From positions 5,911 through 69,910 of the forward strand of contig DAOUJT010000006.1 of NCBI GenBank assembly GCA_034422315.1: DNA of 64,000 nt, in the 5' to 3' direction. Origin of the DNA: Chloroflexota bacterium. Its GTDB lineage: Bacteria > Chloroflexota > UBA11872. The notes beneath the pieces were generated by a model. That model ran no database searches. It worked only from the letters and a program-made list of their open reading frames with translations, and was not told the origin of the DNA. Within the stretch, counting starts at the first letter, position 1; every line of letters starts with the position of its first letter. Positions 5,800 through 19,166 of this stretch are shown one piece after another. The translations under genes and the position numbers were made by a program.

Positions 5800-5944
5800 T
5801 GGGCCGCTCACTTCCTCGACCAGGGGGTGAAGTCTGCTGCTGTTCGAGCGGGAGGGTAGCACCCGGGGTTCGGGTGCTTGGGGTATGAGAGAGAAGGCGG
5901 GATTCCTCGGCCCCGCTGCGCTGCGCTCGGAGTGACGGCTGGGG

Positions 5945-6322
5945 TTAGCCGAATGTTCCGTCGTTGCGCTGGTGGAGGATGACGGGGTTGCCCTCGGGAT
6001 CGGAGACGACAGCGAAACGGCAGGCGCCGGGGTCGACCGGCTCGACGACGACGCGAGCGCCGGATGTTCGGACGGTCTCAAGCACGGTATCCAGGCTGTC
6101 GCAGGCAAACGCAGCGGCGGGGCGCAGACCGGCGTCGCCCACCGCGACTGGCATTTCCTGCGATCCATCAAGGGCGACCGTGACGCCTCCGGCGTCGAAC
6201 TCGACCCACTGGTCACCGTACGCCTCGGCCGGTTGGAGTCCCAGCACGTCGCGGTAGAAGGTCACGGCGCGCTGCATGTCTTGCACGGGGTAGTAGAAGA
6301 AGTCGATGCCTCGGACAGGCAT
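5945..6322 (-). CDS. VOC family protein (glyoxalase / bleomycin-resistance fold).
   Basis: GIDFFYYPVQDMQRAVTFYRDVLGL...GARVVVEPVDP...AVVSDPEGNPVIL is a classic VOC betaalphabetabetabeta signature. Confidence 0.8.
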   Translation of the reverse strand: MPVRGIDFFYYPVQDMQRAVTFYRDVLGLQPAEAYGDQWVEFDAGGVTVALDGSQEMPVAVGDAGLRPAAAFACDSLDTVLETVRTSGARVVVEPVDPGACRFAVVSDPEGNPVILHQRNDGTFG

Positions 6323-6467
6323 AGCGGCTCCCACGGGGGTGTGGTGAATCGACCGTCAGCTTACCGAGGAACGGCGTGGACCCTTGACCGATGGGCGGCC
6401 AGCGGGATTCCGTCCGCGACGGAAGGGACGCCCGGTCGCCTTTCGCGGCGAGGGGCCGCCCGTGGGC

Positions 6468-7955
6468 TCAGTTGATGCGGAACTGTTCGGGGGCGCGGGT
6501 GAAGTTGACTTGCTGGCCGGCGGCAAGCACGGCGGTGAGGCCGCCGTTGGTTCTAATGCAACGCGCTTGGTCGGCTTTGGCGTCGGCGTCGGTGGCGCTT
6601 GGGTCGCAGATGGCGGCCAAGCGTCGGCGGAAGTCGGCAATGCGCTCCTGGTGTTCCGGCCGGTCGGCGAGGTTGGTCAACTCGTGGGGATCGGATTGCA
6701 TGTCGAAGAGTTGGGGGTCGTGGCCGACGAAGTGGATGTATTTCCAGCGCCGGTCTCGCAGTAGGTAGGTGGCGGAGGCGGAGCCGGTGGCGTGGTATTC
6801 GCTGAATACGGTGCGGTCGGCGGGCTCTTCGCCCGACGCCATCGACCACAAGTCAGTACCTGGCAGGTCCGCGTCCGCAGCGGCGGGTTCGACGCCGGTG
6901 CCGGCCATGATGGTGGGCGCGAGGTCAACCAGCGATACGGGGCAGTCGACTGAACGGCCGGCTGGCACGTCGGGTCCGGCCAGGATGAGGGGGACGGCGG
7001 CGGCGCTGTCGTACATGACGCTCTTGCCCCAGAGGCCATAGTCACCAAGGGTTTCGCCGTGGTCGCTGGTGTAGACGATGCGAGTGTCGTGAGCCAAGCC
7101 GGCGTCGCCGAGTGCGCCAAGGACATCCCCGATCAGCTCATCGACGAACGAGCACATGGCGTAGTAGACGAGGCGAGCGCGACGGATGGCGTCTTCGGAG
7201 CGGACGTCTGCCGCCGTTTGGATGCGCGCCTTTCGGAAGGCGGCCAACGGCGGATGCGTGGGCCACTGGTCCGGCGACCAGGCGATGGGCATGTCGATGT
7301 CGTCCAGCCGATAGCGGCGCTGATGATGCTCGGGGGCCGCGAATGGGAAATGGGGCAGGGTGAAGGACACGAACAGGCACCAGGGCTTGTCGTGCGTTTG
7401 CGCCTCGGTTTGGATCCAGCGCACGGCTTCGGCGGCGATGGCGGTGTCGTAGCGGATGTACTCGGAGTCGGTGTCGCCGGCATGGTCGACGTGGCCGAGC
7501 TGATAGCGGGTGACAGGCATGTTGGAGCGAAGGCAGCCGTAGACGTCCCCTATCCCGTGCATGACGTGCATGGGGATGCGCTGGTCGGGGAAGCCGATGT
7601 CGTCGGCGGTGTTGCGGTAGTGGAGCTTGCCGATGGTGGTGACGGCGTGGCCCTGTTCGAGGAGCCGATGCCCCCAGCTTTGCGCGGCGCCGCCGGTGTA
7701 GGGCGCGGCGTTATCCCAGGCGCGTATCTGATGGACGTAGCGGCCGGTGGCGAAGCTGGCGCGGGAGGGGACGCAGATGGGGGAGTTGCAGTAGGCGGTG
7801 GCGAATGAGGTACCGGCCGCAGCCAAGGCATCCAGGTTGGGTGTTTGCACCAGGGGATGGTCGGCGGAACCCAGCATGCGCGGGTTGTGCTCGTCGGACA
7901 TGAGAACCAGGAGGTTCTTGGGTTCCACAGCGTCTCCGGACTCAGGGGGTGGCAC
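6468..7955 (-). CDS. Cys-type sulfatase (arylsulfatase / choline-sulfatase family).
   Basis: Sulfatase signature CNSPICVPSRASFATGRY (C-x-P-x-R formylglycine motif) and an alkaline-phosphatase-like core. Confidence 0.85.
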   Translation of the reverse strand: MPPPESGDAVEPKNLLVLMSDEHNPRMLGSADHPLVQTPNLDALAAAGTSFATAYCNSPICVPSRASFATGRYVHQIRAWDNAAPYTGGAAQSWGHRLLEQGHAVTTIGKLHYRNTADDIGFPDQRIPMHVMHGIGDVYGCLRSNMPVTRYQLGHVDHAGDTDSEYIRYDTAIAAEAVRWIQTEAQTHDKPWCLFVSFTLPHFPFAAPEHHQRRYRLDDIDMPIAWSPDQWPTHPPLAAFRKARIQTAADVRSEDAIRRARLVYYAMCSFVDELIGDVLGALGDAGLAHDTRIVYTSDHGETLGDYGLWGKSVMYDSAAAVPLILAGPDVPAGRSVDCPVSLVDLAPTIMAGTGVEPAAADADLPGTDLWSMASGEEPADRTVFSEYHATGSASATYLLRDRRWKYIHFVGHDPQLFDMQSDPHELTNLADRPEHQERIADFRRRLAAICDPSATDADAKADQARCIRTNGGLTAVLAAGQQVNFTRAPEQFRIN

Positions 7956-8035
7956 GCGGGTGGGAGCCTAGCCCACGGTGCAGATGAGCTACGAGCGAAG
8001 TCTTGTCGCGTGCTTTAAAAGCCTTGGGGGGCGAC

Positions 8036-8065
8036 AGCTTGTCCCGTCGCCCCCCAAAAAGGGCA
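8036..8065. terminator. GC-rich hairpin (GGGGGGCGAC-10 nt loop-GTCGCCCCCC) flanked by A/T runs. Probable terminator of the BNR-protein gene.
   Basis: Perfect 10-bp stem directly 3' of the minus-strand gene ending at 8083. TTTTT/AAAAA on both sides. Confidence 0.5.
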
Positions 8066-8082
8066 AGGTCGGCTACACCGCT

Positions 8083-9456
8083 CTAGCCGATGGGGCCCAC
8101 CGGGTTGGGATAGGTGTACCAGTCGGCCGCGGAGGAGTGGCTGAACGCGAACTGGACCTCGCCAGCGGCCCAGAGCGACCGGTCCTGCAGGTAGTTGTTG
8201 CTGAAGGCGATGCCCCGAACCTTCGAGATGTTCAGGTTCACACTGCGATGCCTCCAGTCCGACTTGTTACCCGGGTCCGTGACGGTGCCGGCCCGAACGA
8301 CCTTCCTGCTTATGTAGAGCCCCTTCTTTGTGGTTCCGACCGCGACGGTTCCGTCACGGGTGATATTGGGCGAAAGGGCAATCGTGTTGATGCGGCCCAA
8401 CTCATCCTTGTGATTCTCAATGACCTTCGAGAAGCTCTCGCCGGCATCCCTCGAGCGGTAGACGCCGTGCTGCACGGAACCGACAAAAATGATCGGTTTG
8501 CTGCGAAACTCGGGGTGGAAGGCGACGGCCGAAATAAGGAGATCGTTCGGCAAAGCCCCGCGACCAACCTGCGATCGGAAGCCTCGGCCATTGTTGTTGC
8601 TGCCGAGCAAGCTGGTGGAGGTCCAAGCAAAGACGTGCCTGGAGCTTCCGCGTCCATCGACCGCGGCCAATCCGAGGTACCGTCCGCGCGCCAAGCCGTT
8701 CCCATGCACAGCGGGCACGGGCGACCAGTTCGCCCCGCCGTCGGTGGATTCGAACAGTCCGCCGGCATCGGCAACGGCAAAGAAAGCGTTGTCAGTCTCG
8801 AATGCCGACGAAGCCGCCAAGCCTCCGATTCGACCGGCGGGAAGGCCCGACGCGACCATCCAAGTCTCACCGCGGTTCGTGGAGCGTGCCAGCCCGGCGT
8901 CCGTGGCAGCCAAGATCACGCCGTCGAGATTCACGTTCGGCGACGGCAGGATGGCATTGATGGTCAGATTGGGTAGCCCGCTGGTGACCTGATGAAAGTT
9001 GGCACCCGTATTTGTGGATCGGAGAACGCCGCCGGCGGAGGTGCCGAGCCAGATGTTCCCATCCTGGAAGACGAACGGCGAGGCGGCCATAACCGTGACT
9101 TCGCCGATCGGGGGTGAGGCGGGAAACGGCGCGGGCGCGGGCGCAGGGGCCGGCTGGGGCACAGGCGCAGGGGCCGGCGTGGGAATCGCCCAGGCGAAGG
9201 TTGACTGGACGTCGCTGCGATGGTCGTTCCGGCAAGCCTGCTCGGCCTGGTCGCCGAAGACGCGCTGATAGATGCCGACGTTCTGGCTGTTGCCCAAGTC
9301 GGCCTCGACGATGTCGTTTAGTTCCACACAACTGGTGGGCCACTGAGCCAAGGCTGGCGTGGCCACAAGCGCCAGCAGAAGAGCCGTGGCAAGCGCCGCG
9401 CCTGCGAACAGTCCGCGGACCGTGATTTGCCTGAAACTGGAGTGCCTAGCCAGCAT
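8083..9456 (-). CDS. Secreted BNR/Ycf48-like beta-propeller repeat protein with an N-terminal signal peptide and a PAPAPAP linker.
   Basis: Signal peptide LFAGAALATALLLALVATPALA. Repeated S-x-D-x-G-x-T/W BNR-like motifs (STNTGANF, STNRGETW, STDGGANW, SRDAGESF). Start chosen at MLARHSSF. Confidence 0.7.
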   Translation of the reverse strand: MLARHSSFRQITVRGLFAGAALATALLLALVATPALAQWPTSCVELNDIVEADLGNSQNVGIYQRVFGDQAEQACRNDHRSDVQSTFAWAIPTPAPAPVPQPAPAPAPAPFPASPPIGEVTVMAASPFVFQDGNIWLGTSAGGVLRSTNTGANFHQVTSGLPNLTINAILPSPNVNLDGVILAATDAGLARSTNRGETWMVASGLPAGRIGGLAASSAFETDNAFFAVADAGGLFESTDGGANWSPVPAVHGNGLARGRYLGLAAVDGRGSSRHVFAWTSTSLLGSNNNGRGFRSQVGRGALPNDLLISAVAFHPEFRSKPIIFVGSVQHGVYRSRDAGESFSKVIENHKDELGRINTIALSPNITRDGTVAVGTTKKGLYISRKVVRAGTVTDPGNKSDWRHRSVNLNISKVRGIAFSNNYLQDRSLWAAGEVQFAFSHSSAADWYTYPNPVGPIG

Positions 9457-9700
9457 GCGCCGTCTCCATGGATTACCCGGTAGACATAAGCATCGTAGCC
9501 GCAGGCTACCGGCATGGAAAGAGTAAAGGGCGCTAACTGGCAGGGTTACGGTGTTGATGGGGCGGTTAGTGCGGGTTGCGCGCCGTATCCCAATCGTATA
9601 CAATAGCGGTGTAGCGCTTCGGACCTGATCGATTCGGCCGGACGATCGGCGGTCAGTCGAAGCGGGGCCGTGGCGGCCCGCGTTGGGTGATCCGACGCCT

Positions 9701-9740
9701 GTCCTCGGCGCGCGGCAACTGAATGCCGCGCGCCGAGGAC
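9701..9740. other. Perfect 16-bp GC-rich stem-loop (GTCCTCGGCGCGCGGC-aactgaat-GCCGCGCGCCGAGGAC) in a ~400-bp intergenic region upstream of the capsid-like gene.
   Basis: Seen directly in the sequence. No flanking T-run. Lies between divergent genes. Confidence 0.5.
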
Positions 9741-10008
9741 GAGAGCGCCGGGAATTCCAGCGGCGGCGTCATCACCGCCCGCGCGCTTGTGCGGAGTACG
9801 AGGGCGGCGGACCGCTCGCATCGACCGATGGGATATCGGGACGGGTGCGATTCCGCCGCCCCTGCGGGCCGGGAGGCGACCCGGCGTGCCCCGCGAGACC
9901 AAGCGCCGGCGAAGCGGGGCTTTGCCGAGCAGGCGCCCACGAGCGGCGCCGCCCTGATTCACGACATACCGAGCGCTCCGCATTCGCGGGTGCTCCGGAG
10001 GCAATGCA

Positions 10009-10863
10009 GTGGCGATAACGAAGACCGATTCAATTGGCGACGTGGTGGACACGGTGATTGCCGAAGCCCGTCGCACGCAGATGCACCGCACGGTGATGGA
10101 ACCGCTGGTGCGGACCTATCGGGTCTCGCGCGGGGCTGGCGACCGGCTGGAGATTCCCAAGTTCGGGACGGTATCGGCCAGCGCTCTGACCGAGGGTGTG
10201 GACATGACGAACCCGCAGACGCTGACCACCAGCAAGATCACGATCACGCCCGCCGAGGTGGGTGCGCAGATCGTGCTGACGGACCGCGCGCTGCGGACGG
10301 CCAAGGAAGACATGGCCCGGGCGGCCGGGCGCGTGTTGGGCGATGCGATCGCCCGCAAGCTGGACAAGGACCTGCTGGGGCTGCTGGACGGCTTCAGCGC
10401 GTCGCTGGGCGGGGCCGGCCAGGACATTTCGATGGGCCACCTGCGGGCGGCGGTGTCGCGCCTGCACGGGGCGGCCGAACCGGCGCCGCAGCCGTTCCAC
10501 GCGGTGCTGCATCCGTACCAGGCGCACGACCTGGCGGCGGACATTTCGCCCACGGGCACCTATCCGGTGCCGGCCGGCATCTCGCAGACGGTGCTGGAAA
10601 ACCACTGGGTGGCGCGCGCATTCGGCGTGGATGTCTTCCAGGCCGGAAACCTGGCGGTGGACAGCAGCGACGACGCCAAGGGCGCGGTGTTCTCGAAGGA
10701 GGCGCTGGTGCTGGTGATGTTCAAGGACTGGGCCGTGGAACGCGAGCGCGACGCCTCGCTGCGGGCCTGGGAGTTGAACGTCGTGGCGGACTACGGCCTG
10801 GGCGAATACGCGGACGCCTGGGGCGTGGAGATGTACTTCGACGCGTCCACCCCGTCCAGCTAA
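10009..10863 (+). CDS. Phage major capsid-like protein (P22-coat / HK97-fold-like, 284 aa).
   Basis: The N-terminal pattern (…AEARRTQMHRTVMEPLVRTYRV.RGAGDRLEIPKFG…) resembles coat-protein families. It heads a co-directional structural operon that ends with a tail-fibre-like gene. Assigned by pattern memory, not by alignment. Confidence 0.5.
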   Translation: MAITKTDSIGDVVDTVIAEARRTQMHRTVMEPLVRTYRVSRGAGDRLEIPKFGTVSASALTEGVDMTNPQTLTTSKITITPAEVGAQIVLTDRALRTAKEDMARAAGRVLGDAIARKLDKDLLGLLDGFSASLGGAGQDISMGHLRAAVSRLHGAAEPAPQPFHAVLHPYQAHDLAADISPTGTYPVPAGISQTVLENHWVARAFGVDVFQAGNLAVDSSDDAKGAVFSKEALVLVMFKDWAVERERDASLRAWELNVVADYGLGEYADAWGVEMYFDASTPSS

Positions 10864-10895
10864 GGCTGGGCGATTCCAGGAGGAGGTAGCGGCAC

Positions 10896-11147
10896 ATGCA
10901 CGCTCCCATCATCTGGATCAGGCGCCGCCCGGCGCGGCGCCTGATCCACCGCTTTCCCGGCGCGGAGGGCGGACGCCAGATCCTGGTGATCACGCCGGAT
11001 CGCCAGGAAGCGCAGGACACGGCGCTGGCCATGCGCGAGCGCCAGGCGGCGCGGCTGCACGACCACGGTACAGCCGATCTGGACGCGCTGGACGCGCAGC
11101 GATCGGCCTGGGGCCGGCGCGGCGCCAAGCCCTCGGAGGCCAGCTGA
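10896..11147 (+). CDS. Small hypothetical protein (83 aa) within the phage-like module.
   Basis: Strong SD GGAGGAGG upstream. Its stop overlaps the next start (TGATG). Confidence 0.5.
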   Translation: MHAPIIWIRRRPARRLIHRFPGAEGGRQILVITPDRQEAQDTALAMRERQAARLHDHGTADLDALDAQRSAWGRRGAKPSEAS

Positions 11148-12370
11148 TGAGCGTGACGAGGCGCGCCTTGCGCCATCGAATCGCACAGCGGCTGGCGCCG
11201 TTTCTGACAGGGATGGCGGACGGCGGGTCTATGGTGACGCTGGTCGACCCGGCGCGGCTCCAGGACTCGACGGCATCCGCCGACCTGTGGACCGATAGCT
11301 GGGTCCACCTGCTTGATGGTCCAAGCGCAGGCGAAACCCGGCGCGTGGCGGCCTACGATCCGGCGGATGGCTCGGTAACGGTCAGCCGGGCGTTTCCCCG
11401 CTCGGTCGACGCTGGGTCGTCCTATGAACTCTCGCGGCTGGTTGGGCCCGACGTGATCAACGGGGCCATCGACGCCACGCTCGCGCGCTGTTGGTTCCAG
11501 ACGCTTTCGCCATTGAGCATGCTGGCCGACGGCGCCATGGAACGCCGGGACACGCGGGCCTGGCGTACCTGGAACGCAGACGCGGCCAAAGTGGCGGCCG
11601 GCTCGGACGCGGCCAGCGGAGCCGCGAGCCTGGAAGTGACCACGACGGCGGCGGGCGGTTACGCGGCCTCAACCACGCTGGCCGTGCTGCCGGGCCAGCC
11701 GTACACGCTGGAAGCGTCATTGGCGCCGGGCGGGTCTACGGCGCGACTGGCGGTTCACAACCTGACCGGCAGCGTTGACCTGGACACCGTCACGGCCACG
11801 GGCCGGGCCTGGCAGCGGGTGCGCCTGACGTTCGTGATTCCCGAAGGATGCGAAGAGATCGAGGTCCGCCTGGGCGCCGCAGAGGCGGGGGCGGCGAACC
11901 TTTGGGACGAGGTGGTCCTGCTAGCGGCCGGCCGCCGCCGGTTCCCACTGCCCGCCTGGATCACGCACCGCCAGCAAGTGGTGGAGGTCTGGCGGCGGGC
12001 GGCGGCCCACCCACAGCGGGTGATGTCGGCGGTGACCTGGTGGCGAACCACGGCCAACCCAGGGCCGGCGGGGCCGGAATTGTGGCTGGAAGCGGACCCG
12101 CCGCCCAGCCTGGGCGAGACGCTGCTGATCGAAGGGCTGCGGGCCTACGACCCGCTGGCCAGCGATGACGCCGTGACCGACGCCCCGGTGGACTGGGTGG
12201 TGCAAGGGGCACTGGTGGAGGTCTACCGCCACCTGCACCGCGACGCGCCGGCCGGCGACGTGGCGCGCTACGCAGCCTTGCAACGCGACGCCGCGCTGGA
12301 GTTCCAGCAGCTTTCCCGCCTCTACCGCCCGCGCGCCACTCGACGGGTGATGCTGGGGGGAGGTTGGTAA
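11147..12370 (+). CDS. Hypothetical structural protein (407 aa) of the phage-like module.
   Basis: Translationally coupled on both sides. No recognised family. Confidence 0.55.
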   Translation: MSVTRRALRHRIAQRLAPFLTGMADGGSMVTLVDPARLQDSTASADLWTDSWVHLLDGPSAGETRRVAAYDPADGSVTVSRAFPRSVDAGSSYELSRLVGPDVINGAIDATLARCWFQTLSPLSMLADGAMERRDTRAWRTWNADAAKVAAGSDAASGAASLEVTTTAAGGYAASTTLAVLPGQPYTLEASLAPGGSTARLAVHNLTGSVDLDTVTATGRAWQRVRLTFVIPEGCEEIEVRLGAAEAGAANLWDEVVLLAAGRRRFPLPAWITHRQQVVEVWRRAAAHPQRVMSAVTWWRTTANPGPAGPELWLEADPPPSLGETLLIEGLRAYDPLASDDAVTDAPVDWVVQGALVEVYRHLHRDAPAGDVARYAALQRDAALEFQQLSRLYRPRATRRVMLGGGW

Positions 12371-14749
12371 ATGCCACGCGGCAATCGCCCGCCCTATCCC
12401 TACGACTGCATGGTGGACGGGACGGGCCTGATGCTCAGCACCGGGGCCGAAGGCACGATGGCCTGGCACGAGCGCAAGCTGGATTTCTTTGCGCCGCGCG
12501 TCAGCCAGACCGACCAGTCCTATGCCCAGTTCCCGCCAGAAGACGAGACGACATGGGCGGTAGACGACCTCTCCGGCGGGTATGGCCAGCGGGTCGTTCC
12601 GCGCAGCGGGTCCACCGGCTACGCCCACGGGCTGGCCGACACGCGCATCCCACACCAGGTCACCCTGCCGCCGGACGTCGTGACAACGCCGATTACGTCG
12701 TCGGGAACGATTACGGACCACTTCGAACTGGACGACGCCATCTACGTGCTGGTGGGGTCCGCCGTCTACCGCTCGCGGGACGGCCGGACCTGGACGCTGG
12801 CCAAGGCGTTCGAGCCAGGAGTTACGGCGACGTCCGCCGCGGTCTTCAAGGGACGCGCGGAGCGGCCGATGGCCTTCGTGGGCGTAGGCGGCTCGGCGGC
12901 CGAGGAGCCGTTCTGGACGTTCGACGGCACGACCTGGACGCAGCACGCCGGTCAGCGCGCCAACCCGACGGCGGTGCTGCGAACCGGCGACAGCGGTCAA
13001 ACGTACGCCGATCTCACCGAGGCCGTCAGCGATGCGGACGCGGGGACGTACGGGCACCTGGACTCGCTGGGCGCGGTGCACGACGGCGCCTGGCTGCTGG
13101 TGGGAGGCAAGGCGCCGTTCGCGGCGGTGGCCATCGAGATGAACGTCGCCGCGAATGGCAACGCGACCGATCTGGCAGCGGAGTATTGGAACGGCTCGGT
13201 CTGGACGACCGTGGGCGGGCTAAGCGACGGCACGGCACAGGACGACAAAACGTTGGCCCGTGACGGCGAACTGAGGTTCGAGGAACCGGCGGGCTGGCGG
13301 CGGACGACGATTAACGGGATGGAGGCCTTCTGGCTGCGGCTGACCGTTGCGTCGGCGCTGGACTCCTCAACCCGCATCAACGAACTGGCGGTACGCGAAG
13401 TCCGCAAGGCCGACGCGTTTCTGGTGATCGGTTCGCGGGTGGCGCGGGTGAGCCGAGAGACTGGCGCGCCCAGGCTGTCGATCTCAATGGACGGTGGGTC
13501 GGCTTCCACCTGGACAGACGGCGCACCGGTGGGCGACGGCGCGTCCACCGCCAATGCGCTCCTGCGTCTGGGCGGCACGGCCTACGTGGTGAAGGAAGAC
13601 GGCCTCTACGCGCTGCGACCCGGCGCTGAAAGCGGCGCGGTGGCGGAGCACGTGTGGTCACAGCGGGCCCGGCATTCAAGTCCGCATAGCGGCCGCGGCG
13701 CCGCGGCCTGGCGCGGCTATCTGTGGCTCCCGATGGCGCAGGGGCTTTATCGATTCCGGTCAGGCGACCTGACGCCCACCGGCCCGGAACGTCTGCGCGA
13801 AAACAACTCGCCGATCCGGGGCCGCATCACCGCCTGCGCCGGCGACGCTCACTTCCTGTATGCAGCGCTGCGAGACGAGACCGGGCACACCACGCTGCTG
13901 GCGTTCAATCCCGACCAGCAGTCCTGGCATCCCCTGGCGCAGCTTGGGCGGGTGGACTGCCGGCACATGTGGGTGTCGGACCGGCCGGGGCCGAACCCGC
14001 GGTTGTACCTGGGGATCGGCGGATCGCTGGCCACGATCGTGCTGCCGCGGGGTTCGGCTAATCCGCTGCACGACCCCAACTGTCGCTTCGCGGCCAGCGC
14101 GGAGGTGTACCTTTCGCGCTTCGACGCGGCGTTCGCAGCGCAGCCCAAGGCCTTCCTGGCCCTGACGCTGAGCGGCGAGCGGCTGACGGCGTCCACCTGG
14201 GTGGATGCGGCCTACCGGCTGGCCGACGGCGCGCCGTTCAAACAACTGGGACGCTTTGCCGCCAGCGGTCAGCGCATCGAGTTTGGGCCGGAGGCCGCGG
14301 CGATGGCCATTGACCTGCGGCTGACGCTGCATAGCGACGACCCCGCGACTACGCCGGTAGTCCACGCAGTCTCGCTGGCTTACGCCATTCGCGCGGATTT
14401 CAAGCGGGTGTTTCAGTTCGTGGCGCGGATCGCGGACCAGACGCCGCTGCGCGACGGACGCCGCGACCGGCGGTCGGGCCGCGCGATCAAGCAGGCCATC
14501 GCCGCCGCGGCGGCCACGCGTGAGCCGGTGGTGCTGGTCAGCCCGGACGGTGAGCACATCGAAGCGCTGGTCCGCGGAGCCGAAGCCCAGGGGCGTCGCA
14601 GCGAGGCCGGGCGCGACCTGGAATGGCTGATGCCCGTGACCGCCACCGAATACCGGTCAACCGCCGGCACCGGCACGCACAACCGACTGGCGGCTTATGC
14701 CCACCAGGCCCAGGCCGCCTATCTGCATACCCAACTCGCCAGGCTCTAG
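12371..14749 (+). CDS. Large hypothetical structural protein (792 aa), possibly tail or tubular protein.
   Basis: Its ATG directly abuts the preceding stop. Size and position between capsid and tail fibre. No recognised motifs. Confidence 0.55.
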   Translation: MPRGNRPPYPYDCMVDGTGLMLSTGAEGTMAWHERKLDFFAPRVSQTDQSYAQFPPEDETTWAVDDLSGGYGQRVVPRSGSTGYAHGLADTRIPHQVTLPPDVVTTPITSSGTITDHFELDDAIYVLVGSAVYRSRDGRTWTLAKAFEPGVTATSAAVFKGRAERPMAFVGVGGSAAEEPFWTFDGTTWTQHAGQRANPTAVLRTGDSGQTYADLTEAVSDADAGTYGHLDSLGAVHDGAWLLVGGKAPFAAVAIEMNVAANGNATDLAAEYWNGSVWTTVGGLSDGTAQDDKTLARDGELRFEEPAGWRRTTINGMEAFWLRLTVASALDSSTRINELAVREVRKADAFLVIGSRVARVSRETGAPRLSISMDGGSASTWTDGAPVGDGASTANALLRLGGTAYVVKEDGLYALRPGAESGAVAEHVWSQRARHSSPHSGRGAAAWRGYLWLPMAQGLYRFRSGDLTPTGPERLRENNSPIRGRITACAGDAHFLYAALRDETGHTTLLAFNPDQQSWHPLAQLGRVDCRHMWVSDRPGPNPRLYLGIGGSLATIVLPRGSANPLHDPNCRFAASAEVYLSRFDAAFAAQPKAFLALTLSGERLTASTWVDAAYRLADGAPFKQLGRFAASGQRIEFGPEAAAMAIDLRLTLHSDDPATTPVVHAVSLAYAIRADFKRVFQFVARIADQTPLRDGRRDRRSGRAIKQAIAAAAATREPVVLVSPDGEHIEALVRGAEAQGRRSEAGRDLEWLMPVTATEYRSTAGTGTHNRLAAYAHQAQAAYLHTQLARL

Positions 14750-14760
14750 GAGGCCCCTGT

Positions 14761-15813
14761 ATGGCAACAACCACGGCGAACCTGCGGCTGACGAAGCCGC
14801 TGGGCGCCGAGCGATACGACATCAATGTGTTCAACAACAACGCCGACCTGATCGACGCCGGCTTCCACGCCACGACCGGGCACGACCACTCCGGCAGGGC
14901 GGGCGAAGGCCCTCAACTGACGGAGGCGGCGCTGGCCGCAGGCGCGGTGACGACGGCCAAGCTGGCGCCGGACACCTTCCACGCCGAGCAGTTTCACAAC
15001 GCGCTGCCGAACGGCGACTTCGAGTCGTGGTCGGCCGGCGGAACGGCGGCGCCGGACGGCTGGGCGCTGGCCGGCAATGCGGCCCGGGTCGCGCGCGCGA
15101 CCTCCGTCGTCAAGCACGGGCGCTATGCGGCCTCGCTGACGCGGCGGGGCGCCGACTGCGATCTGCGCCGCGGCCTGGCCGACGACCTGGGCGGGCTGAC
15201 TTACCTGCGCGGGCGTACGTTCACCCTGGGCGGTTGGGTCTACGCGACCGTTCCCAATCGAGCGCGGCTGGAACTGGGCGACGGCGTAACCACGTCCATC
15301 TCGGCCTATCACTCCGGAAGTTCGGCCTGGGAGTGGCTGACCGCGACGATCGTGGCGGATAGCGCGGCGCCGGCGCTGCTGGCGCTCTGCAAGCTCAAGC
15401 AGGGCGACACCACGGCCTGGTTCGACGGGCTGCAGGTGGCCGAAGGCACGCTGGCACCGGCGTTTACGCCCAACCCGCTGGACCAAGCCCTGCGCCTGAC
15501 CAACTTCCAAGACAGCACGCCAGCCAACCACGTGGACCGGGGACAGTGGCGGGCGGAGGTTGGGATGGCCTCGGTGGCGGGCGTGACCTCGCAGAACTGG
15601 TCGGATCTTGACGTGACGTTCGAGACGGCTTTCCGCACGGTCTACGCGGCCCTGGCCACGCCACGCGAGGACATTGGCGGGCGCCGCGTGATTGCGCGCT
15701 GCACCAACCTGCGCGTCAACGGCTTCACCCTGCAAGCCGCCACCGGGGACGCGCGCAATTTCAGCAACACCACGCCGGGCCTGGTCTATTGGCTGGCGAT
15801 TGGAGCGGTGTGA
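14761..15813 (+). CDS. Phage tail-fibre-like / minor structural protein with a conserved N-terminal MATTTANLxLTKP...YD...N.N.D.ID motif.
   Basis: Characteristic N-terminus shared by many prophage tail-fibre proteins. SD TAGGAGG upstream. The C-terminal part is Gly/Ala/Thr-rich and beta-rich. Confidence 0.65.
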   Translation: MATTTANLRLTKPLGAERYDINVFNNNADLIDAGFHATTGHDHSGRAGEGPQLTEAALAAGAVTTAKLAPDTFHAEQFHNALPNGDFESWSAGGTAAPDGWALAGNAARVARATSVVKHGRYAASLTRRGADCDLRRGLADDLGGLTYLRGRTFTLGGWVYATVPNRARLELGDGVTTSISAYHSGSSAWEWLTATIVADSAAPALLALCKLKQGDTTAWFDGLQVAEGTLAPAFTPNPLDQALRLTNFQDSTPANHVDRGQWRAEVGMASVAGVTSQNWSDLDVTFETAFRTVYAALATPREDIGGRRVIARCTNLRVNGFTLQAATGDARNFSNTTPGLVYWLAIGAV

Positions 15814-16163
15814 TGGGAGTCCCCGACCAGCCCGGCTCAATGGAGCCGAGTTCATTCGACGCGCCGGCCGACGCAAGTCCCAGCATTGACATGGATCACC
15901 CGAAGGAGGAACGAGCTTTGGAACCCGAAACCATTGGCATCATCACGGCCGTGACCGTGTATCTCGCGCGCGTGGTGCGCAACGAGATGGTGCGCTGGCG
16001 CAGCCGCGCCCGCGGCACCGACTCGGAAACTCGCGCGTTGCAGCTGCTGGAAAACATCGACCGCAGCCTGATGACGCATCACACCGAAATGACGCGCTAC
16101 CAGGCGTCGATCGCGGACTCGCTGGGCCAGATCAAAGGCCGGCTGGCCCAGGGACGCGTCTAG
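15813..16163 (+). CDS. Small protein (116 aa) with one hydrophobic helix (TIGIITAVTVYLARVV). Possible holin-like or membrane-active protein.
   Basis: TGATG overlap with the tail-fibre gene. Last gene before the terminator hairpins. Confidence 0.4.
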   Translation: MGVPDQPGSMEPSSFDAPADASPSIDMDHPKEERALEPETIGIITAVTVYLARVVRNEMVRWRSRARGTDSETRALQLLENIDRSLMTHHTEMTRYQASIADSLGQIKGRLAQGRV

Positions 16164-16196
16164 ACACGGCTGCGGGGCGTTGGCCCCGAGGCGTTG

Positions 16197-16231
16197 AAGG
16201 CCGGCTCCGTTTGGCGTACGGAGCCGGCCTT
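16197..16231. terminator. Perfect 14-bp stem-loop (AAGGCCGGCTCCGT-ttggcgt-ACGGAGCCGGCCTT), preceded by a second hairpin at 16172-16189. Candidate terminator of the phage-like operon.
   Basis: Located 34 nt after the stop at 16163. No strong U-tract. Confidence 0.45.
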
Positions 16232-16345
16232 CGGTCGTTAGAGCGGCGAATCAACGCTTCACGGAACGCCGGGGGCGGTCGGCGCCGTAGTAGGCTCAAG
16301 CGGCCGCGCAACGCGGCGCGGCGCAGCCCCAAGGAAGGGGCGGCG

Positions 16346-17977
16346 ATGGTCGGTATCCGAGGCCGAACCACGCGCGCCACGGGGCGCTTCTTTGGCTTGG
16401 CTGGCGCGACCCTGCTGACCGTCGTCTTGCTGGCCTGCGGCGCCGACGGGCACGAACCGGGCGCGACCGATCTGGCAGCGGTTGCCGCCGTCGTCGACCG
16501 GTTGGGCGCCTCCGACGATCCGCAACAGGAGTTTGCCGAACTTCCGGCTGAAACCCGCCAATCGGTCATTGACTACCTGAGGCTCGAAGAGACGGAGTCG
16601 TCTGGCGGCGGCGGTCCCACGACCCCGATCAACGCGCCGGAAAACTGCGAACGGCAGGCATCGGGGTACGTGGCTCGCAACGCGCACGGGCGCGAGCTCT
16701 GGACGTACGAGTCCATTACCGAGTGGTGCTGGGCCGACGGGATCATTACCACGGCGCCGGTCTTCACGGTCAACGCGAAGATCCATGCTCCCCTGTGGGA
16801 ATTCGCCGGCCACGTCGAACGGGAGGAATCCGGCGGCCAAGGCGAGGCGGAGCACAGCGACGTGGCGGAGGGTCTGTTCCGGCTCTGCCCGGAGGCTCCA
16901 GACAGTTGCGTTCAGGACGAAAGCGTTCGGGTCAAGAAACGGCAAGACGGCGACGGCGGATACGGCTCGGAGACCTCCGACATCGACCACAGCCCCGAAC
17001 CGTCAGGCCCTTGGACCCGCCCAGGGTATTACCTGGCGTTCCTCGTCTATATCCCGCTGGCCGCCACGCCGCTGATTGCCGGGGACGTCATGCGCCGGAA
17101 GTCGCCGCGCGGTTCCGCCGCCTGGGGGCTGGGGGTCGTGGCCACCGCCCTGGGCGTGCTGGTCTCGCTGTACGTCGCCGTGATGGTGGTCTATACGGCG
17201 ATCTTCAGCATCGGGTCGTTGTTCGGCTCGGATTCGACATCGGTGTCAATGACAACGAGCGTCGAGCGGGTCGAGGTGATGGAGGTCCCGATCGAGGAAA
17301 CGGTGGTGGCGCCGGTGGAGACGCCGGCGGTCGGGGGACAACCCGGAAGCTCGGCAGCGGCCAGTGGGCAATCCGGCGCCGCACCGCCGCCCAGAGATTC
17401 CGCAGGGCCAGGGCCGCGCGCCGACGAATGCACGGATCACGAGGTCAGGCTGACGGCGCGCAACCTATTCGGCCAGCCGGTGTGGAGCTACCGATCCGGA
17501 ACCTGGTGGTGTTGGGACGGGGTGGAGATTACGGACGAGCCCAACGTTTCCACGTGGACCTTGTCGCAGGGTCTGTTCTGGAACCCCGTGGACGACAATA
17601 CCGAGGAGTACGGCGGCCAGGGCGAGTGGACGCATAGGGACACGGTCTACCTGACCTTCGAACTCTGCGTCCCGTTGATTGGATGCACTCAGCGCGACAA
17701 TCAGTTGCTTCGAAAGTCCCAGCACGCCGACGGAACGTCCGCCGTCGACGACTTGCCAAGGCAGGATTCATATCCAGCCGCTTTGTTCTCGCTGATTGGT
17801 CCGCTGGTAGTGGCCCTGACGCTGCTGGTTATCGGTCGGGTGCTGCGGCGGGGCGCCGAACGCGGTGCGCTGGCCTGGGGGTTCGGCGTCAGCGCCACGT
17901 CGCTGGGAGTCTTGATGCTGACGCTCCTCGTTGTCACGGGGCTGTTCTTCGTAGCGGCCAGCCATACGGTGGGATAA
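16346..17977 (+). CDS. Lipoprotein or membrane protein carrying two copies of a W-x-[YF]-x-S-x-T-WCW-x-G Cys-containing domain. Each copy is followed by an R-rich/GS-AWG-GV TM segment.
   Basis: Lipobox LLAC after the signal peptide. Internal duplication: ELWTYESITEWCWADG... and PVWSYRSGTWWCWDG.... Each copy is followed by RR..RGSAAWG(L/F)GV..LGVL TM helices. Confidence 0.6.
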   Translation: MVGIRGRTTRATGRFFGLAGATLLTVVLLACGADGHEPGATDLAAVAAVVDRLGASDDPQQEFAELPAETRQSVIDYLRLEETESSGGGGPTTPINAPENCERQASGYVARNAHGRELWTYESITEWCWADGIITTAPVFTVNAKIHAPLWEFAGHVEREESGGQGEAEHSDVAEGLFRLCPEAPDSCVQDESVRVKKRQDGDGGYGSETSDIDHSPEPSGPWTRPGYYLAFLVYIPLAATPLIAGDVMRRKSPRGSAAWGLGVVATALGVLVSLYVAVMVVYTAIFSIGSLFGSDSTSVSMTTSVERVEVMEVPIEETVVAPVETPAVGGQPGSSAAASGQSGAAPPPRDSAGPGPRADECTDHEVRLTARNLFGQPVWSYRSGTWWCWDGVEITDEPNVSTWTLSQGLFWNPVDDNTEEYGGQGEWTHRDTVYLTFELCVPLIGCTQRDNQLLRKSQHADGTSAVDDLPRQDSYPAALFSLIGPLVVALTLLVIGRVLRRGAERGALAWGFGVSATSLGVLMLTLLVVTGLFFVAASHTVG

Positions 17978-18041
17978 GTCATGCCCAAACCCCGTGGACC
18001 GTGCCGCAACGCAACTCCAGGCAGGGTGGAGGAGCGAGGTA

Positions 18042-19166
18042 ATGCCAGCCGGGCCTGAGCCGCTGCTGGCGGGTATCGCCTACACCCTGCTGATCGTCGT
18101 CCCAATCTGCGCGGCGGCTTTTATCGCGGGGTGGGTACTCCGTCGGTCGGGCGGGCACGAGTCGCTGGTCTGGGGGTTGGGCGTCATCGTCACGGCTTGG
18201 GGCGCCGCCCTGGCCCTTGAGCATGGTCTGCGGATCCTGATCTTCGAAGCTCGGCTGTTTCCAGTCAGTGGGGTGACTATCACCGTGCTTTACTTCCCCC
18301 TGACCAACGCGATCCCACCGATTGTCGCGGCGCTCGGCGCGGGTGTGGTCATGTTGAAAGCGGCGGAGCGAGGCTCGACGACCTGGGCGCTTGGCGTTGT
18401 TGGCGTGGCCTTTGGTGCAGTTGGCCTTGTCAGGGCAATCGCCCCTGTGGCGATCTACCTGCCGACGGCTATTGGATCGCTGGGATTGGGATCCGTTGTC
18501 GAAGTCGAGACCGTGGTCACAGAGATTTCGGTTGAGGAATTCGACGCGCGATCCGCGTATAGGGACAGGGTGACGGTTGAGGACGGCGTGTGTGAGGTGC
18601 ATCGCCGGGGGATCGAAGGCCACAACCTGATCGGGCAGCGGCTGTGGACGTTTCACTCAGAGACACGGTGGTGCTGGAACGGCCGCGAAGTCGGCGCCGA
18701 CCCATCGTACTCGCCCACAGTCAGCGCCTCCGTGGATTCTCACATTCCCTTCGTAAGGGGTGGCTTTCCCGTGGATCCATCGCCTAACGATTCCGAGCTT
18801 CCCTGGGAGCTCGGCGACTGGGCGACCCAAGTCATCCACGTGTGCCCGCCGTTGCTGGAATGCGTGCAAAACGCATATGCGACCGTAGAAAAGCGCCAGT
18901 TTTCGGATGGGTCGACCACTGTGGACTACCCAAGTCTGACGGACCACTCGCAGCGCAGTCCCTGGCACCCGGTGCTGGGCCTGCTGCCTTCGATTGTCAT
19001 AAGTACGACGGCGCTGGTTACCGGTTGGATCCTGCTACGACGGTCCCGGCGCGGATCGGCGGCCTGGGGATTCGGTGTCGTCGCTGTTGGGCTGGGAGTG
19101 CTGGTCCCGATCCTGGTTGTTGTGGTCGGCGTGTTTTTCCTGACGACCAGCTACACCGTGTTTTAG
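18042..19166 (+). CDS. Paralogous membrane protein with one WCW Cys domain and three copies of the R..GS..WG.GV TM motif.
   Basis: RLWTFHSETRWCWNG. C-terminus LRRSRRGSAAWGFGVVAVGLGVLV...TTSYTVF nearly identical in pattern to the upstream gene's C-terminus ...AASHTVG. GGAGG SD. Confidence 0.6.
   Translation: MPAGPEPLLAGIAYTLLIVVPICAAAFIAGWVLRRSGGHESLVWGLGVIVTAWGAALALEHGLRILIFEARLFPVSGVTITVLYFPLTNAIPPIVAALGAGVVMLKAAERGSTTWALGVVGVAFGAVGLVRAIAPVAIYLPTAIGSLGLGSVVEVETVVTEISVEEFDARSAYRDRVTVEDGVCEVHRRGIEGHNLIGQRLWTFHSETRWCWNGREVGADPSYSPTVSASVDSHIPFVRGGFPVDPSPNDSELPWELGDWATQVIHVCPPLLECVQNAYATVEKRQFSDGSTTVDYPSLTDHSQRSPWHPVLGLLPSIVISTTALVTGWILLRRSRRGSAAWGFGVVAVGLGVLVPILVVVVGVFFLTTSYTVF

What the first reader, a model, noticed from the sequence alone, without database searches (positions are those of the whole stretch)
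10009..16231. Orphan phage-like structural module (capsid to tail fibre) with no packaging, portal or integration genes
Six tightly coupled co-directional genes encode a capsid-like protein, three unknown structural proteins and a tail-fibre-like protein. Stop/start overlaps include TGATG at 11147 and 15813, and the 12371 ATG directly abuts the preceding stop. The tail-fibre-like protein carries the canonical MATTTANL.LTKP N-terminus. The module ends in a double hairpin. Upstream lies an unrelated secreted BNR protein and ~400 bp of non-coding DNA containing a perfect 16-bp hairpin. Nowhere in the window is a terminase, portal, protease, sheath, tube or integrase recognisable. This could be a decayed prophage, a domesticated particle or tailocin-like element, or a structural cassette of a larger element. 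The 407-aa and 792-aa proteins have no family I can recognise.
Basis: partly seen in the sequence, partly recalled or inferred. Interest (0 to 1): 0.7.

Follow-up and report, generated by a model that had tools for sequence, protein, structure and literature searches.

The report
Domesticated podovirus head-tail operon in Chloroflexota
The six genes are the capsid, tail-adaptor, tail-nozzle and tail-fibre operon of an ancient short-tailed phage that is now a fixed, vertically inherited and selectively maintained part of the chromosome in a whole clade of Chloroflexota, making it a candidate new kind of gene transfer agent.

Summary
Six tightly coupled + strand genes (10009-16163) encode an HK97-type major capsid protein, an 83-aa protein, a podovirus tail adaptor (T7 gp11 class) with an inserted carbohydrate-binding module, a podovirus nozzle (T7 gp12 / P22 gp10 class), a tail fibre and a 116-aa protein.

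It is not a decaying orphan. The same operon sits at the same chromosomal place, between a sulfatase and Sua5, in 28 loci from 27 species-representative Chloroflexota genomes. It diverges in step with its cellular neighbours, has no internal stop codon in the aligned orthologues, and is under purifying selection (median dN/dS 0.13-0.35; capsid at least 83% identical where Sua5 falls to 49%).

Packaging genes exist. An intact large terminase lies about 3.8 kb left of the window on the same contig. In relatives, portal, a small ORF and terminase lie upstream, almost contiguous with the capsid gene in one genome. No integrase, repressor, replication gene or tRNA was found in the annotated flanks.

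A conserved, structured leader of about 400 nt with no Rfam match precedes the capsid gene.

Best reading: an exapted podovirus-derived particle, probably GTA-like. DNA packaging and transfer are untested.

The parts
9576..9604 (+). Promoter-like element: TTGCGC (9576-9581), a 17-nt spacer, then TACAAT (9599-9604). It would start a leader of about 400 nt.
   Evidence: Read from the sequence. The TTGCG and TACAAT/TACACT blocks are conserved at the same alignment columns in the window clade. The strict sigma-70 scan did not call it, because the -35 matches only 3 of 6 positions. Inference only.
9611..10008 (+). Conserved 5' leader of the capsid operon.
   Evidence: The non-coding region aligns across all clades, including loci whose nozzle is only 50% identical. 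RNAalifold predicts 93 pairs, 23 of them with compensatory changes. No Rfam match at E up to 1.
9783..9927 (+). Structured core of the leader: P1 (9783-9799 with 9886-9906), long hairpin P2 (9802-9861, apical loop GGGAU at 9830-9834 with an invariant GGA), P3 (9868-9885) and P4 (9907-9927).
   Evidence: A single-sequence fold gives this three-way junction at -88.7 kcal/mol, z = -2.96.

P2 was counted on 26 loci from all clades. 97% of cells are paired, 9 of 18 pairs carry compensatory changes, 0 of 500 shuffles reach this, and slid controls give 42-47% paired.

The whole core was counted on 16 loci. 97.4% of cells are paired, against 40-47% when slid.

The motif occurs once per locus, always about 190 nt before the capsid start.
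10009..10863 (+). Major capsid protein, 284 aa, HK97 class, with no delta domain.
   Evidence: - Pfam PF25209 6.5e-11 (above cut-off); PHROG 267/544 major head.
- 31-36% identity to capsid proteins of Pelagibacter phages HTVC026P/111P/112P/202P, phage DSL-LC06 and Microcystis phage Mae-JY09.
- Median dN/dS 0.13; at least 83% identical across all loci.
- Among the highest GC3 values in the window at 0.90.
10896..11147 (+). p83, a small conserved protein of unknown role. Candidates are a head-completion, decoration or scaffolding-like factor.
   Evidence: No family hit. Conserved at this position in 21-26 loci at 43-90% identity. Median dN/dS 0.35.
11147..12370 (+). Tail adaptor (T7 gp11 / tail tubular protein A class), 407 aa. 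A carbohydrate-binding jelly-roll is inserted at aa 128-261 (nt 11528-11929).
   Evidence: AF2 model, pLDDT 79.7.

The insertion is absent from the 258-273 aa orthologues. It gives a sub-threshold NCBIfam match to the GTA_spike_fiber domain. Median dN/dS 0.22.
12371..14749 (+). Tail nozzle or hub (T7 gp12 / P22 gp10 class), 792 aa, with a beta-propeller core and an extra inserted domain at about aa 200-345.
   Evidence: AF2 model, pLDDT 77.5.

A profile search finds 4,943 cluster representatives at E up to 0.001, most of 640-690 aa and matching in two stretches around the insert. There is no Pfam or PHROG family for it. Median dN/dS 0.24.
14761..15813 (+). Tail fibre, 350 aa, with a conserved N-terminal anchor (about 70 aa) and a clade-specific C-terminal part.
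   Evidence: - 85-95% identical within the window clade; only residues 1-70/86 are conserved (53-61%) in the distant clades.
- The clade-D counterpart hits tail-fibre PHROGs at 7.8e-9.
- A weak Gp53-like_C match for the window protein.
- Its position after the nozzle fits a fibre.
- Median dN/dS 0.17.
15813..16163 (+). p116, a small protein with one moderately hydrophobic segment (aa 37-55) and a helical C-terminal half. Its role is unknown; a lysis or release factor is a guess.
   Evidence: No family hit. Conserved in 15-16 loci. KD19 maximum 1.09. Median dN/dS 0.27.
16174..16232 (+). Two GC-rich hairpins that end the operon, a putative terminator without a U-tract.
   Evidence: A perfect 15-bp inverted repeat at 16196-16210 with 16218-16232. 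A small hairpin read from the sequence. Function is inferred.

Best explanation
The six genes are the head-and-tail structural operon of a podovirus-derived element that entered the chromosome of an ancestor of a Chloroflexota clade. Since then it has been inherited vertically and kept functional by selection.

Shown:
- The proteins are a capsid, a tail adaptor, a tail nozzle and a tail fibre of podovirus type.
- The operon occupies one conserved chromosomal position in 28 loci.
- It co-diverges with its cellular neighbours.
- All its genes are under purifying selection, and so are terL and portal in the loci that carry them.
- Cellular genes have been inserted between the packaging genes and the capsid gene.
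- No integration, lysogeny or replication genes were found in the flanks annotated in detail.

Inferred:
- The operon is transcribed from a conserved promoter through a structured leader of about 400 nt that controls expression.
- The capsid protein assembles around a portal that is encoded elsewhere in this genome.
- Terminase fills the heads with DNA.
- Adaptor, nozzle and fibres form a short tail. The carbohydrate-binding insertion and the fibre tips bind surface glycans of recipient cells.
- The particles therefore act like a gene transfer agent, serving the host rather than the element.
For: 1. Identity of the parts. Capsid: Pfam, PHROG and 31-36% identity to cultured-phage capsids. Adaptor and nozzle: fold matches. 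Fibre.

2. Packaging genes. TerL scores PHROG_2 at 1.3e-23. The 560-607 aa gene just upstream has homologues carrying the portal family PF05133. In locus L017 the order is portal, 83-aa ORF, terL, MR_MLE enzyme, capsid, p83, adaptor, nozzle, fibre, all within about 12.5 kb. In a close relative the portal is 15.4 kb upstream of the capsid gene. On the window's own contig an intact terL is 13.8 kb upstream of the capsid gene.

3. Fixed position. The order sulfatase(-), capsid operon(+), then Sua5(-) further downstream is found in 28 loci of 27 species-representative genomes, several of them closed 3-3.8 Mb chromosomes.

4. Co-divergence. Pairwise identities of nozzle, capsid and adaptor correlate with those of the flanking sulfatase and Sua5 (Pearson 0.88-0.96).

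5. Selection. No internal stop in the aligned orthologues (16-29 genomes per gene). Median dN/dS is 0.13-0.35, against 0.25 for sulfatase and 0.23 for Sua5. TerL and portal give 0.06-0.42. A wrong-frame translation of the fibre gave about 1, an accidental negative control.

6. Nothing prophage-like around it. No integrase, repressor, replication gene or tRNA appears in the window or in the flanks annotated in detail.

7. Phage origin. The capsid, and in one locus (L022) the terL, match the Pelagibacter phage HTVC111P group. A 35-kb IMG/VR contig has the same order of 284-aa capsid, nozzle and fibre. The nozzle family has thousands of metagenomic relatives.

8. Dedicated regulation. The conserved structured leader occurs once per locus.
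Against: - No experiment or expression data. Particle formation, DNA packaging and transfer are all unverified.
- The portal of the window's own genome was not located. On its contig a Type ISP restriction gene sits where the portal lies in relatives.
- No scaffolding protein, head-maturation protease or ejection protein was recognised.
- The M23+SLT peptidoglycan hydrolase that follows the fibre in the distant clades is missing from the window clade's locus.
- Head capacity relative to locus size is unknown. The most compact version (12.5 kb in L017) could in principle fit inside a capsid of the related 31-32 kb phages, so the GTA criterion 'cannot package itself' is not established.
- Co-divergence was tested by correlating pairwise identities, not by formal tree reconciliation.
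- Only 10 kb on each side of each locus could be examined.
Confidence: 0.55

Rival explanations
1. The element is domesticated and selected, but not for gene transfer. The particles, or just the capsid and tail proteins, serve another host function. Possibilities are killing or marking competitor cells, delivering proteins, interfering with infecting phages, or interacting with an animal host.
For: Everything that shows domestication also fits this reading. The capsid protein is far more conserved than any other part (at least 83% identity). The adaptor carries a glycan-binding module. The window genome shows no portal next to its terL. A lysis enzyme is missing from the window clade's locus.
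Against: TerL and portal are retained, intact and under purifying selection wherever they were seen. That is hard to explain without DNA packaging. No toxin-like or cargo gene is linked to the operon. No known defence-system model matches.
Confidence: 0.25
2. It is a functional or recently active temperate phage, or a phage satellite, that integrates at the same chromosomal site in many hosts.
For: The gene set (portal, terminase, capsid, adaptor, nozzle, fibre and, in some clades, a hydrolase) comes close to a minimal virion module. Distant relatives occur in IMG/VR viral contigs.
Against: - No integrase, repressor, replication gene or flanking tRNA.
- Cellular genes in a conserved order interrupt the element.
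- Divergence tracks that of the flanking cellular genes.
- One copy per locus set.
- G+C content (0.70) is close to that of the surroundings.
- tblastn against 50,697 phage genomes finds nothing for the nozzle.
Confidence: 0.05
3. It is a neutral, decaying prophage remnant with no function.
For: Parts are missing or displaced. There is no scaffold or protease. In the window genome the portal is not next to terL, and a duplicated terL C-terminal fragment lies nearby. One MAG (L024) shows an apparent frameshift in the capsid gene.
Against: No internal stop in the aligned orthologues across 16-29 genomes per gene, spanning divergence where Sua5 is only 49% identical. dN/dS is 0.13-0.35, equal to or below that of housekeeping neighbours. 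The regulatory leader is also conserved.
Confidence: 0.03
4. The 284-aa HK97-fold protein is an encapsulin-like nanocompartment shell and the neighbouring genes are unrelated.
For: Its size (284 aa) and its lack of a delta domain or an adjacent scaffold resemble encapsulins.
Against: The Pfam hits are phage capsid families, not the encapsulin family. The translationally coupled downstream genes are a tail adaptor, a nozzle and a fibre. Portal and terminase belong to the same conserved locus.
Confidence: 0.02

Closest known systems
Gene transfer agents as defined by Kogay et al. 2022 (viriforms; RcGTA, Bartonella and Brachyspira types) (PMC9662315)
   Same: - Tailed-phage-derived structural and packaging genes are fully endogenised.
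- The genes are split by cellular genes.
- The element is inherited vertically and co-diverges with the host.
- It is under purifying selection.
- No integration or replication genes were found.
   Different: - The tail is of podovirus type (adaptor plus nozzle). There is no tube or tape-measure module as in RcGTA.
- No sequence family is shared with RcGTA, apart from the HK97 fold and a sub-threshold match of the adaptor's insertion to the GTA head-spike-fibre domain.
- The phylum is different.
- The three experimental criteria (random host DNA packaged, cannot package itself, delivery to cells) are untested.
Podovirus tail machines: T7 gp11/gp12, P22 gp4/gp10, and solved tails of GP4, SU10, cyanophage A4, PhiM1, Kp9 and Pa223
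   Same: The adaptor and nozzle folds match, and the gene order adaptor, nozzle, fibre directly after the capsid gene is the same.
   Different: - Sequence identity is only 7-12%, with no Pfam or PHROG family.
- The adaptor carries a carbohydrate-binding insertion, and the nozzle carries an extra domain (aa ~200-345) that most relatives lack.
- The genes are chromosomal and fixed, not part of a virus genome.
Pelagibacter phages HTVC111P / HTVC026P / HTVC112P / HTVC202P, phage DSL-LC06 and Microcystis phage Mae-JY09
   Same: These hold the closest capsid proteins by sequence (31-36% over the whole length). HTVC111P terL is 22% identical over its full length to the element's terL in locus L022.
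   Different: - They are complete 30-39 kb phage genomes with portal and scaffold next to the capsid gene.
- Their portal and tail genes give no detectable match to the element.
Domesticated defective prophages under purifying selection in enterobacteria (from my own knowledge: Bobay et al. 2014 PNAS; not checked here)
   Same: Vertically inherited phage remnants whose genes evolve under purifying selection.
   Different: Here the conservation is much deeper, reaching housekeeping proteins at about 50% identity. A coherent virion gene set is retained rather than scattered genes.
Dd1 of Desulfovibrio desulfuricans. It is listed as a functional GTA of a sulfate-reducing deltaproteobacterium in PMC9662315; its short-tailed morphology is from my own memory.
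   Same: Possibly a short-tailed GTA particle.
   Different: As far as I recall, the genes of Dd1 are not identified, so no comparison is possible.

Membership tests
Gene transfer agent (criteria of Kogay et al. 2022, PMC9662315) | Uses proteins derived from a tailed-phage ancestor to form phage-like particles | tested here: met
   The capsid, adaptor, nozzle, fibre, portal and terL are all of tailed-phage type. The particles themselves have not been observed.
Gene transfer agent (criteria of Kogay et al. 2022) | Genome fully endogenised in the host genome, often across multiple loci | tested here: met
   The element has a fixed chromosomal position in 28 loci. Cellular genes lie between terL and the capsid gene. 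No integrase, replication gene or tRNA was found in the annotated flanks. Only 10 kb on each side of each locus was seen.
Gene transfer agent (criteria of Kogay et al. 2022) | Mostly vertical inheritance and co-diversification with hosts | tested here: met
   Synteny is conserved. Pairwise identities of element proteins correlate with those of the flanking sulfatase and Sua5 (Pearson 0.88-0.96). Formal tree congruence was not computed.
Gene transfer agent (criteria of Kogay et al. 2022) | Mostly encapsidates random pieces of host DNA | not testable with these tools
   Needs sequencing of DNA from purified particles.
Gene transfer agent (criteria of Kogay et al. 2022) | Cannot package its whole genome because the head is too small | tested here: inconclusive
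   Head size is unknown. The capsid's nearest relatives belong to 30-39 kb phages. The recognised genes span about 12.5 kb in L017 and at least 21 kb, plus an unlocated portal, in the window genome.
Gene transfer agent (criteria of Kogay et al. 2022) | Packaged DNA is delivered to other cells | not testable with these tools
   Experimental criterion.
RcGTA-like GTAs (Rhodogtaviriformidae) | Homology to the RcGTA head-tail cluster, a siphovirus-type set with tail tube, tape measure and distal tail proteins | tested here: not met
   No RcGTA family matches in Pfam or NCBIfam, apart from a sub-threshold domain match (30.9 bits against a cut-off of 36). The tail is adaptor plus nozzle, and no tube or tape-measure gene is present.
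HK97-fold major capsid proteins | Match to a curated phage capsid family above its threshold | tested here: met
   PF25209 scores 43.4 bits (cut-off 27) and PF05065 scores 24.6 bits (cut-off 24.2).
Podovirus tail (T7/P22 type) | Adaptor (gp11/gp4 class) and nozzle or hub (gp12/gp10 class) folds encoded side by side | tested here: met
Intact temperate prophage | Integrase, repressor or lysogeny switch, replication genes, lysis cassette and attachment-site repeats | tested here: not met
   None were found in the scanned part of the window or in the flanks annotated in detail (window, its contig L036, L001, L002, L033). Attachment-site repeats were not searched for specifically.
Tailocin (R- or F-type) | Tail with sheath and/or tube and baseplate, and no capsid genes | tested here: not met
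   A capsid gene is present and strongly conserved. No sheath, tube or baseplate family was found.
Encapsulin | HK97-fold shell protein of the encapsulin family with a cargo enzyme, and no portal or tail | tested here: not met
   Only phage capsid families match. The coupled genes are tail parts, and portal and terL are linked.
Known anti-phage defence systems (PADLOC) | Match to a defence-system protein model | tested here: not met
   No hit for any of the six proteins or four neighbours.

The most novel reading that the evidence does not exclude
This is an independently exapted, podovirus-derived gene transfer agent that arose in the ancestor of a large clade of Chloroflexota and has been kept ever since. 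Many of the genome names in this clade suggest marine sponges, by my own reading. It would be the first GTA in that phylum and the first short-tailed GTA with a defined gene set. It would also have its own previously undescribed structured leader RNA controlling capsid-operon expression.
Probability: 0.35. Interest if true: 0.85.

Novelty: new variant of a known kind. Interest (0 to 1): 0.72.

Why it matters
Only a few genetically defined GTA lineages exist. Those classified by Kogay et al. 2022 are from Alphaproteobacteria and spirochaetes.

- **A new case of phage domestication.** A deeply conserved podovirus-type element in Chloroflexota would show that domestication of phages into host-serving particles has happened in another phylum and from a different virion architecture.
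- **A candidate route for gene exchange.** It would offer a possible mechanism for gene exchange among uncultured Chloroflexota.
- **A recognisable signature.** The element can be searched for elsewhere as a capsid, adaptor, nozzle and fibre operon at a fixed locus, diverging in step with the host.
- **Naming an unannotated protein family.** The work identifies a large family as podovirus nozzles: 4,943 cluster representatives with no Pfam or PHROG model.
- **A new RNA to test.** It points to a new conserved RNA structure open to direct biochemical testing.

Tried and rejected
- **Family and sequence searches for p407 and p792.** Pfam and PHROG scans gave nothing usable for p83, p407, p792 or p116. 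tblastn of p792 against 50,697 phage genomes found nothing. Fold prediction was therefore needed.
- **First window ORF as terminase.** I first suspected that window ORF 3-1316 was the terminase seen in locus L001. BLASTP showed no relation. It is a weakly methyltransferase-like gene of the inserted block.
- **Wrong strand in L017.** I first tested the wrong strand of the ORF upstream of terL (1806-3980, minus) and a 542-aa ORF, and found nothing. GC3-guided gene calling then revealed the + strand 575-aa gene, which is the portal.
- **Portal confirmation attempts that failed.** A profile search against PDB sequences and hhalign against the HTVC111P portal found nothing. The portal assignment rests on PF05133 in homologues, a weak PHROG_156 hit, and position.
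- **Wrong-frame fibre.** My first fibre query started one base late (14762). It was out of frame and gave dN/dS of about 1. I redid it from 14761.
- **Portal of the window's own genome.** It is not on the 8.6 kb left of the window. No portal-cluster member listed lies on a 110,910-bp contig. This remains unresolved.
- **Literature.** Searches for a described GTA in Chloroflexi or Chloroflexota, or a podovirus-type GTA, found no report of this element. A sponge-virome paper checked for the sample accession contained none of the terms searched.
- **PDB sequence searches.** Queries with the capsid and the fibre found no relative.
- **Rfam.** The search found no family in 9400-16400.

Full report
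**1. The observation**

The window is G+C-rich (0.61-0.72). Positions 10009-16163 hold six co-directional + strand ORFs with strong third-position G+C (0.80-0.90) and no internal stops.

- TGATG at the p83/p407 boundary and at the fibre/p116 boundary.
- TAAATG at the p407/p792 boundary.
- A GGAGG-type ribosome-binding site before every gene.

Corrections:
- The fibre starts at ATG 14761 (350 aa).
- The last gene is 15813-16163 (116 aa).
- The upstream hairpin is 17 bp and perfect (9701-9717 with 9724-9740).
- The operon ends with a small hairpin and a perfect 15-bp hairpin (16196-16210 with 16218-16232), neither with a U-tract.

The flanks are cellular:
- Upstream on the minus strand are a sulfatase and a BNR/sortilin-like secreted protein.
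- Downstream are two paralogous membrane proteins, Sua5/YrdC, a STAS/SpoIIE/anti-sigma-kinase cluster, a large helicase, DXP synthase and hopanoid-synthesis genes.
- No tRNA occurs in the window.
- ORFs beyond about 47.5 kb were not scanned against family libraries.

**2. What the proteins are**

- **Capsid.** The 284-aa protein is an HK97-class major capsid protein. Pfam Phage_capsid_4 scores above its threshold, and several PHROG major-head families match. It is 31-36% identical over 94-98% of its length to annotated capsid proteins of Pelagibacter phages HTVC026P/111P/112P/202P, phage DSL-LC06 and Microcystis phage Mae-JY09.
- **Fibre.** The N-terminal 70 or so residues are shared by all clades, while the rest is clade-specific. 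The clade-D version hits tail-fibre PHROGs.
- **p83 and p116.** They remain unassigned. p116 has one moderately hydrophobic segment.

The operon is therefore capsid, p83, adaptor, nozzle, fibre, p116, which is a podovirus head-and-tail module.

**3. It is not an orphan**

- In locus L001 a 440-aa large terminase lies upstream of the same operon. Pfam Terminase_3C matches it, and the L022 orthologue scores PHROG_2 at 1.3e-23. Cellular genes separate it from the capsid gene.
- GC3-guided gene calling and clustering of all fetched loci showed a conserved 560-607 aa gene and a small ORF immediately upstream of terL. Homologues of the large gene carry the portal family PF05133, and it gives a weak PHROG portal match.
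- In L017 the element is almost contiguous: portal, 83-aa ORF, terL, one enolase-superfamily enzyme, capsid, p83, adaptor, nozzle, fibre.
- In a close relative of the window genome (p407 90% identical), portal and terL lie 15.4 and 11.7 kb upstream of the capsid gene. The DNA between them aligns with window positions 8-4696.
- The window's own contig was recovered (110,910 bp; window position 1 is L036 position 8587). It carries an intact terL at L036 3505-4806, about 3.8 kb left of the window and 13.8 kb upstream of the capsid gene. A duplicated terL C-terminal fragment lies nearby.
- No portal was found on that contig stretch. A Type ISP restriction gene occupies the place where relatives have the portal. 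I could not locate this genome's portal.

**4. Conservation, inheritance and selection**

- The nozzle has full-length homologues at 50-96% identity, all in Chloroflexota MAGs and including multi-megabase contigs.
- A scan of one genome per GTDB species returned 28 Chloroflexota loci from 27 genomes, plus one distant Gemmatimonadaceae locus.
- In every locus that reaches the flanking genes, the operon has the sulfatase just upstream on the opposite strand and, where the locus extends that far, Sua5 further downstream on the opposite strand.
- Pairwise identities of nozzle, capsid and adaptor correlate with those of the sulfatase and Sua5 (Pearson 0.88-0.96). No aligned orthologue contains a stop codon.
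- Median dN/dS (Nei-Gojobori, pairs with dS 0.05-1.0):

| Gene | Median dN/dS |
|---|---|
| capsid | 0.13 |
| fibre | 0.17 |
| adaptor | 0.22 |
| nozzle | 0.24 |
| p116 | 0.27 |
| p83 | 0.35 |
| sulfatase (flank) | 0.25 |
| Sua5 (flank) | 0.23 |

- TerL and portal give 0.06-0.42.
- An accidental wrong-frame fibre query gave about 1, which serves as a negative control.
- The capsid protein never falls below 83% identity, while the sulfatase falls to 58% and Sua5 to 49%. It also has a GC3 of 0.90, among the highest in the window, a hint of high expression.
- No integrase, repressor or replication gene appears in the scanned part of the window or in the flanks annotated in detail. No defence-system model matches.

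**5. Origin**

- The capsid, and in locus L022 the terL, match the Pelagibacter phage HTVC111P group. In that phage the order is terL, portal, two genes, scaffold, capsid.
- A 35-kb IMG/VR contig carries a 284-aa capsid gene. Further downstream it has a nozzle relative directly followed by a fibre of the same PHROG families as the clade-D fibre.
- A full HMMER scan of 1.84 billion cluster representatives with the nozzle profile finds 4,943 relatives (470 at E up to 1e-30). Most are 640-690 aa and match in two stretches around the region where p792 has an extra domain.
- The element thus derives from a large, poorly annotated group of short-tailed phages. The chromosomal Chloroflexota version accounts for only about two of those 50%-identity clusters.

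**6. Regulation (secondary finding)**

- The roughly 550-nt non-coding stretch before the capsid gene aligns across all clades.
- It starts with a promoter-like TTGCGC, 17-nt spacer and TACAAT (9576-9604), which the strict scan did not call.
- It contains a structured core at 9783-9927. A single-sequence fold gives a three-way junction plus a following hairpin, z = -2.96.
- The long hairpin P2 (9802-9861) has an invariant GGA in its apical loop. On 26 loci it has 97% paired cells, 9 of 18 pairs with compensatory changes, 0 of 500 shuffles as good, and 42-47% pairing when slid.
- The caveats are that the structure was derived from these sequences, and that most compensatory changes separate two clades, so independent events are few.
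- Within the window clade the whole core is 97.4% paired but varies little.
- The motif occurs once per locus, always before the capsid gene and never near portal or terL.
- Rfam has no match.
It keeps pairing while its sequence changes.

**7. Interpretation**

Measured against the published GTA definition (PMC9662315), the three criteria that sequence can address are met: phage-derived virion proteins, full endogenisation across interrupted loci, and vertical co-diversification. The head-capacity criterion is inconclusive. The two experimental criteria, random host DNA packaged and delivery to other cells, cannot be tested here.

The element is not a member of the RcGTA family. Its tail is of a different architecture and no family is shared.

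My best explanation is an exapted podovirus-derived particle, most likely GTA-like. Retention of terminase and portal under selection argues for DNA packaging. The glycan-binding adaptor insertion and the clade-specific fibre tips argue for adsorption to cells.

A different host-serving use of the particles is the main rival. A neutral remnant, an active prophage and an encapsulin are each contradicted by the data.

The main weaknesses are:
- There is no expression or particle evidence.
- The portal of the window genome is unlocated.
- No scaffold, protease or ejection proteins were recognised.
- The peptidoglycan hydrolase is absent from the window clade's locus.
- Only 10 kb on each side of each locus was visible.

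**8. Novelty**

Full-text searches found no description of a GTA or comparable element in Chloroflexi or Chloroflexota, or of a genetically defined podovirus-type GTA. I rate it a new variant of a known kind, phage domestication of the GTA type.

Noticed in passing
window 9576-10008 (core 9783-9927): A conserved, structured 5' leader RNA precedes the capsid gene. It forms a three-way junction plus a hairpin, with an invariant GGA in the apical loop of P2. It has no Rfam match and occurs once per locus in all clades. It is a candidate new cis-regulatory RNA.
   Followed up: partly
window 16211-17977 and 17994-19166: Two paralogous multi-pass membrane proteins (588 and 390 aa) carry repeated soluble domains with a conserved W-C-W motif and have no family match. 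They sit between p116 and Sua5 in only 4 of the loci (window, L004, L008, L014), so they look like a later insertion into the locus.
   Followed up: partly
L036 1-5261 (window's own contig, left of the window): A Type ISP restriction-modification gene (N6_Mtase + Type_ISP_C) lies where relatives have the portal gene. A duplicated 71-aa C-terminal fragment of terL (5035-5247) follows the intact terL. Both are signs of rearrangement at the packaging end of the element.
   Followed up: partly
L020 14252-15229; also L018, L021-L029: In the distant clades the fibre is followed by small membrane proteins and a bifunctional Peptidase_M23 + SLT protein (325-346 aa) plus an 81-129 aa membrane protein. 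This looks like a lysis or cell-wall-penetration cassette. It is absent from the window clade's locus.
   Followed up: partly
window 20727-24143: A partner-switching signalling cluster (two STAS proteins, a receiver-STAS protein, a receiver-SpoIIE phosphatase and an anti-sigma-type kinase) lies just beyond Sua5 and is syntenic in the window clade. From my own knowledge, RcGTA production is influenced by an Rsb-like partner-switching system. The proximity here may be coincidence.
   Followed up: no
L007 5123-5219 and L008 5092-5189: The leader covariance model gives weak extra hits (27-31 bits, E 0.005-0.03) between the sulfatase and the BNR gene in two loci. They may be chance matches in G+C-rich DNA or a degenerate second copy.
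   Followed up: no
L024 7916-8739: The capsid gene of this MAG aligns in two frames, an apparent frameshift. It is either an assembly error or a single case of decay.
   Followed up: no
L025 and L030 (both from MAG jk18xAbins.55): One MAG carries two copies of the operon, belonging to different clades (nozzle 51% and 81% identical to the window). The bin is probably a mixture of two organisms.
   Followed up: no
L023-L029, about 6000-7300: A PIN-domain toxin plus a small antitoxin-like gene is inserted between the sulfatase and the capsid gene in clade D. The window clade has a HicB antitoxin gene (window 4300-4692) in the block between terL and the capsid gene.
   Followed up: no
window 38767-39777 and 43477-48454: A hopanoid-biosynthesis cluster is present: squalene-hopene cyclase, an amine-oxidase-type enzyme, a squalene/phytoene synthase, and a radical-SAM protein with DUF3463. 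It is ordinary, but it confirms the chromosomal context.
   Followed up: no
window 28654-32451 (minus strand): A 1265-aa protein combines a topoisomerase-type zinc ribbon, a DUF559/DUF2726 nuclease-like domain and a DEAD/Helicase_C core. It sits in the lowest-G+C part of the window (0.61) and may be a mobile or defence-related insertion.
   Followed up: no
L031 (Gemmatimonadaceae MAG) 1980-12346: A distant relative of the capsid (29%) and nozzle (27%) lies in a co-directional cluster with virion-structural and tail-fibre PHROG hits and a glycosyl/methyl-transferase. It is probably a prophage or phage contig of the ancestral phage group in another phylum.
   Followed up: partly
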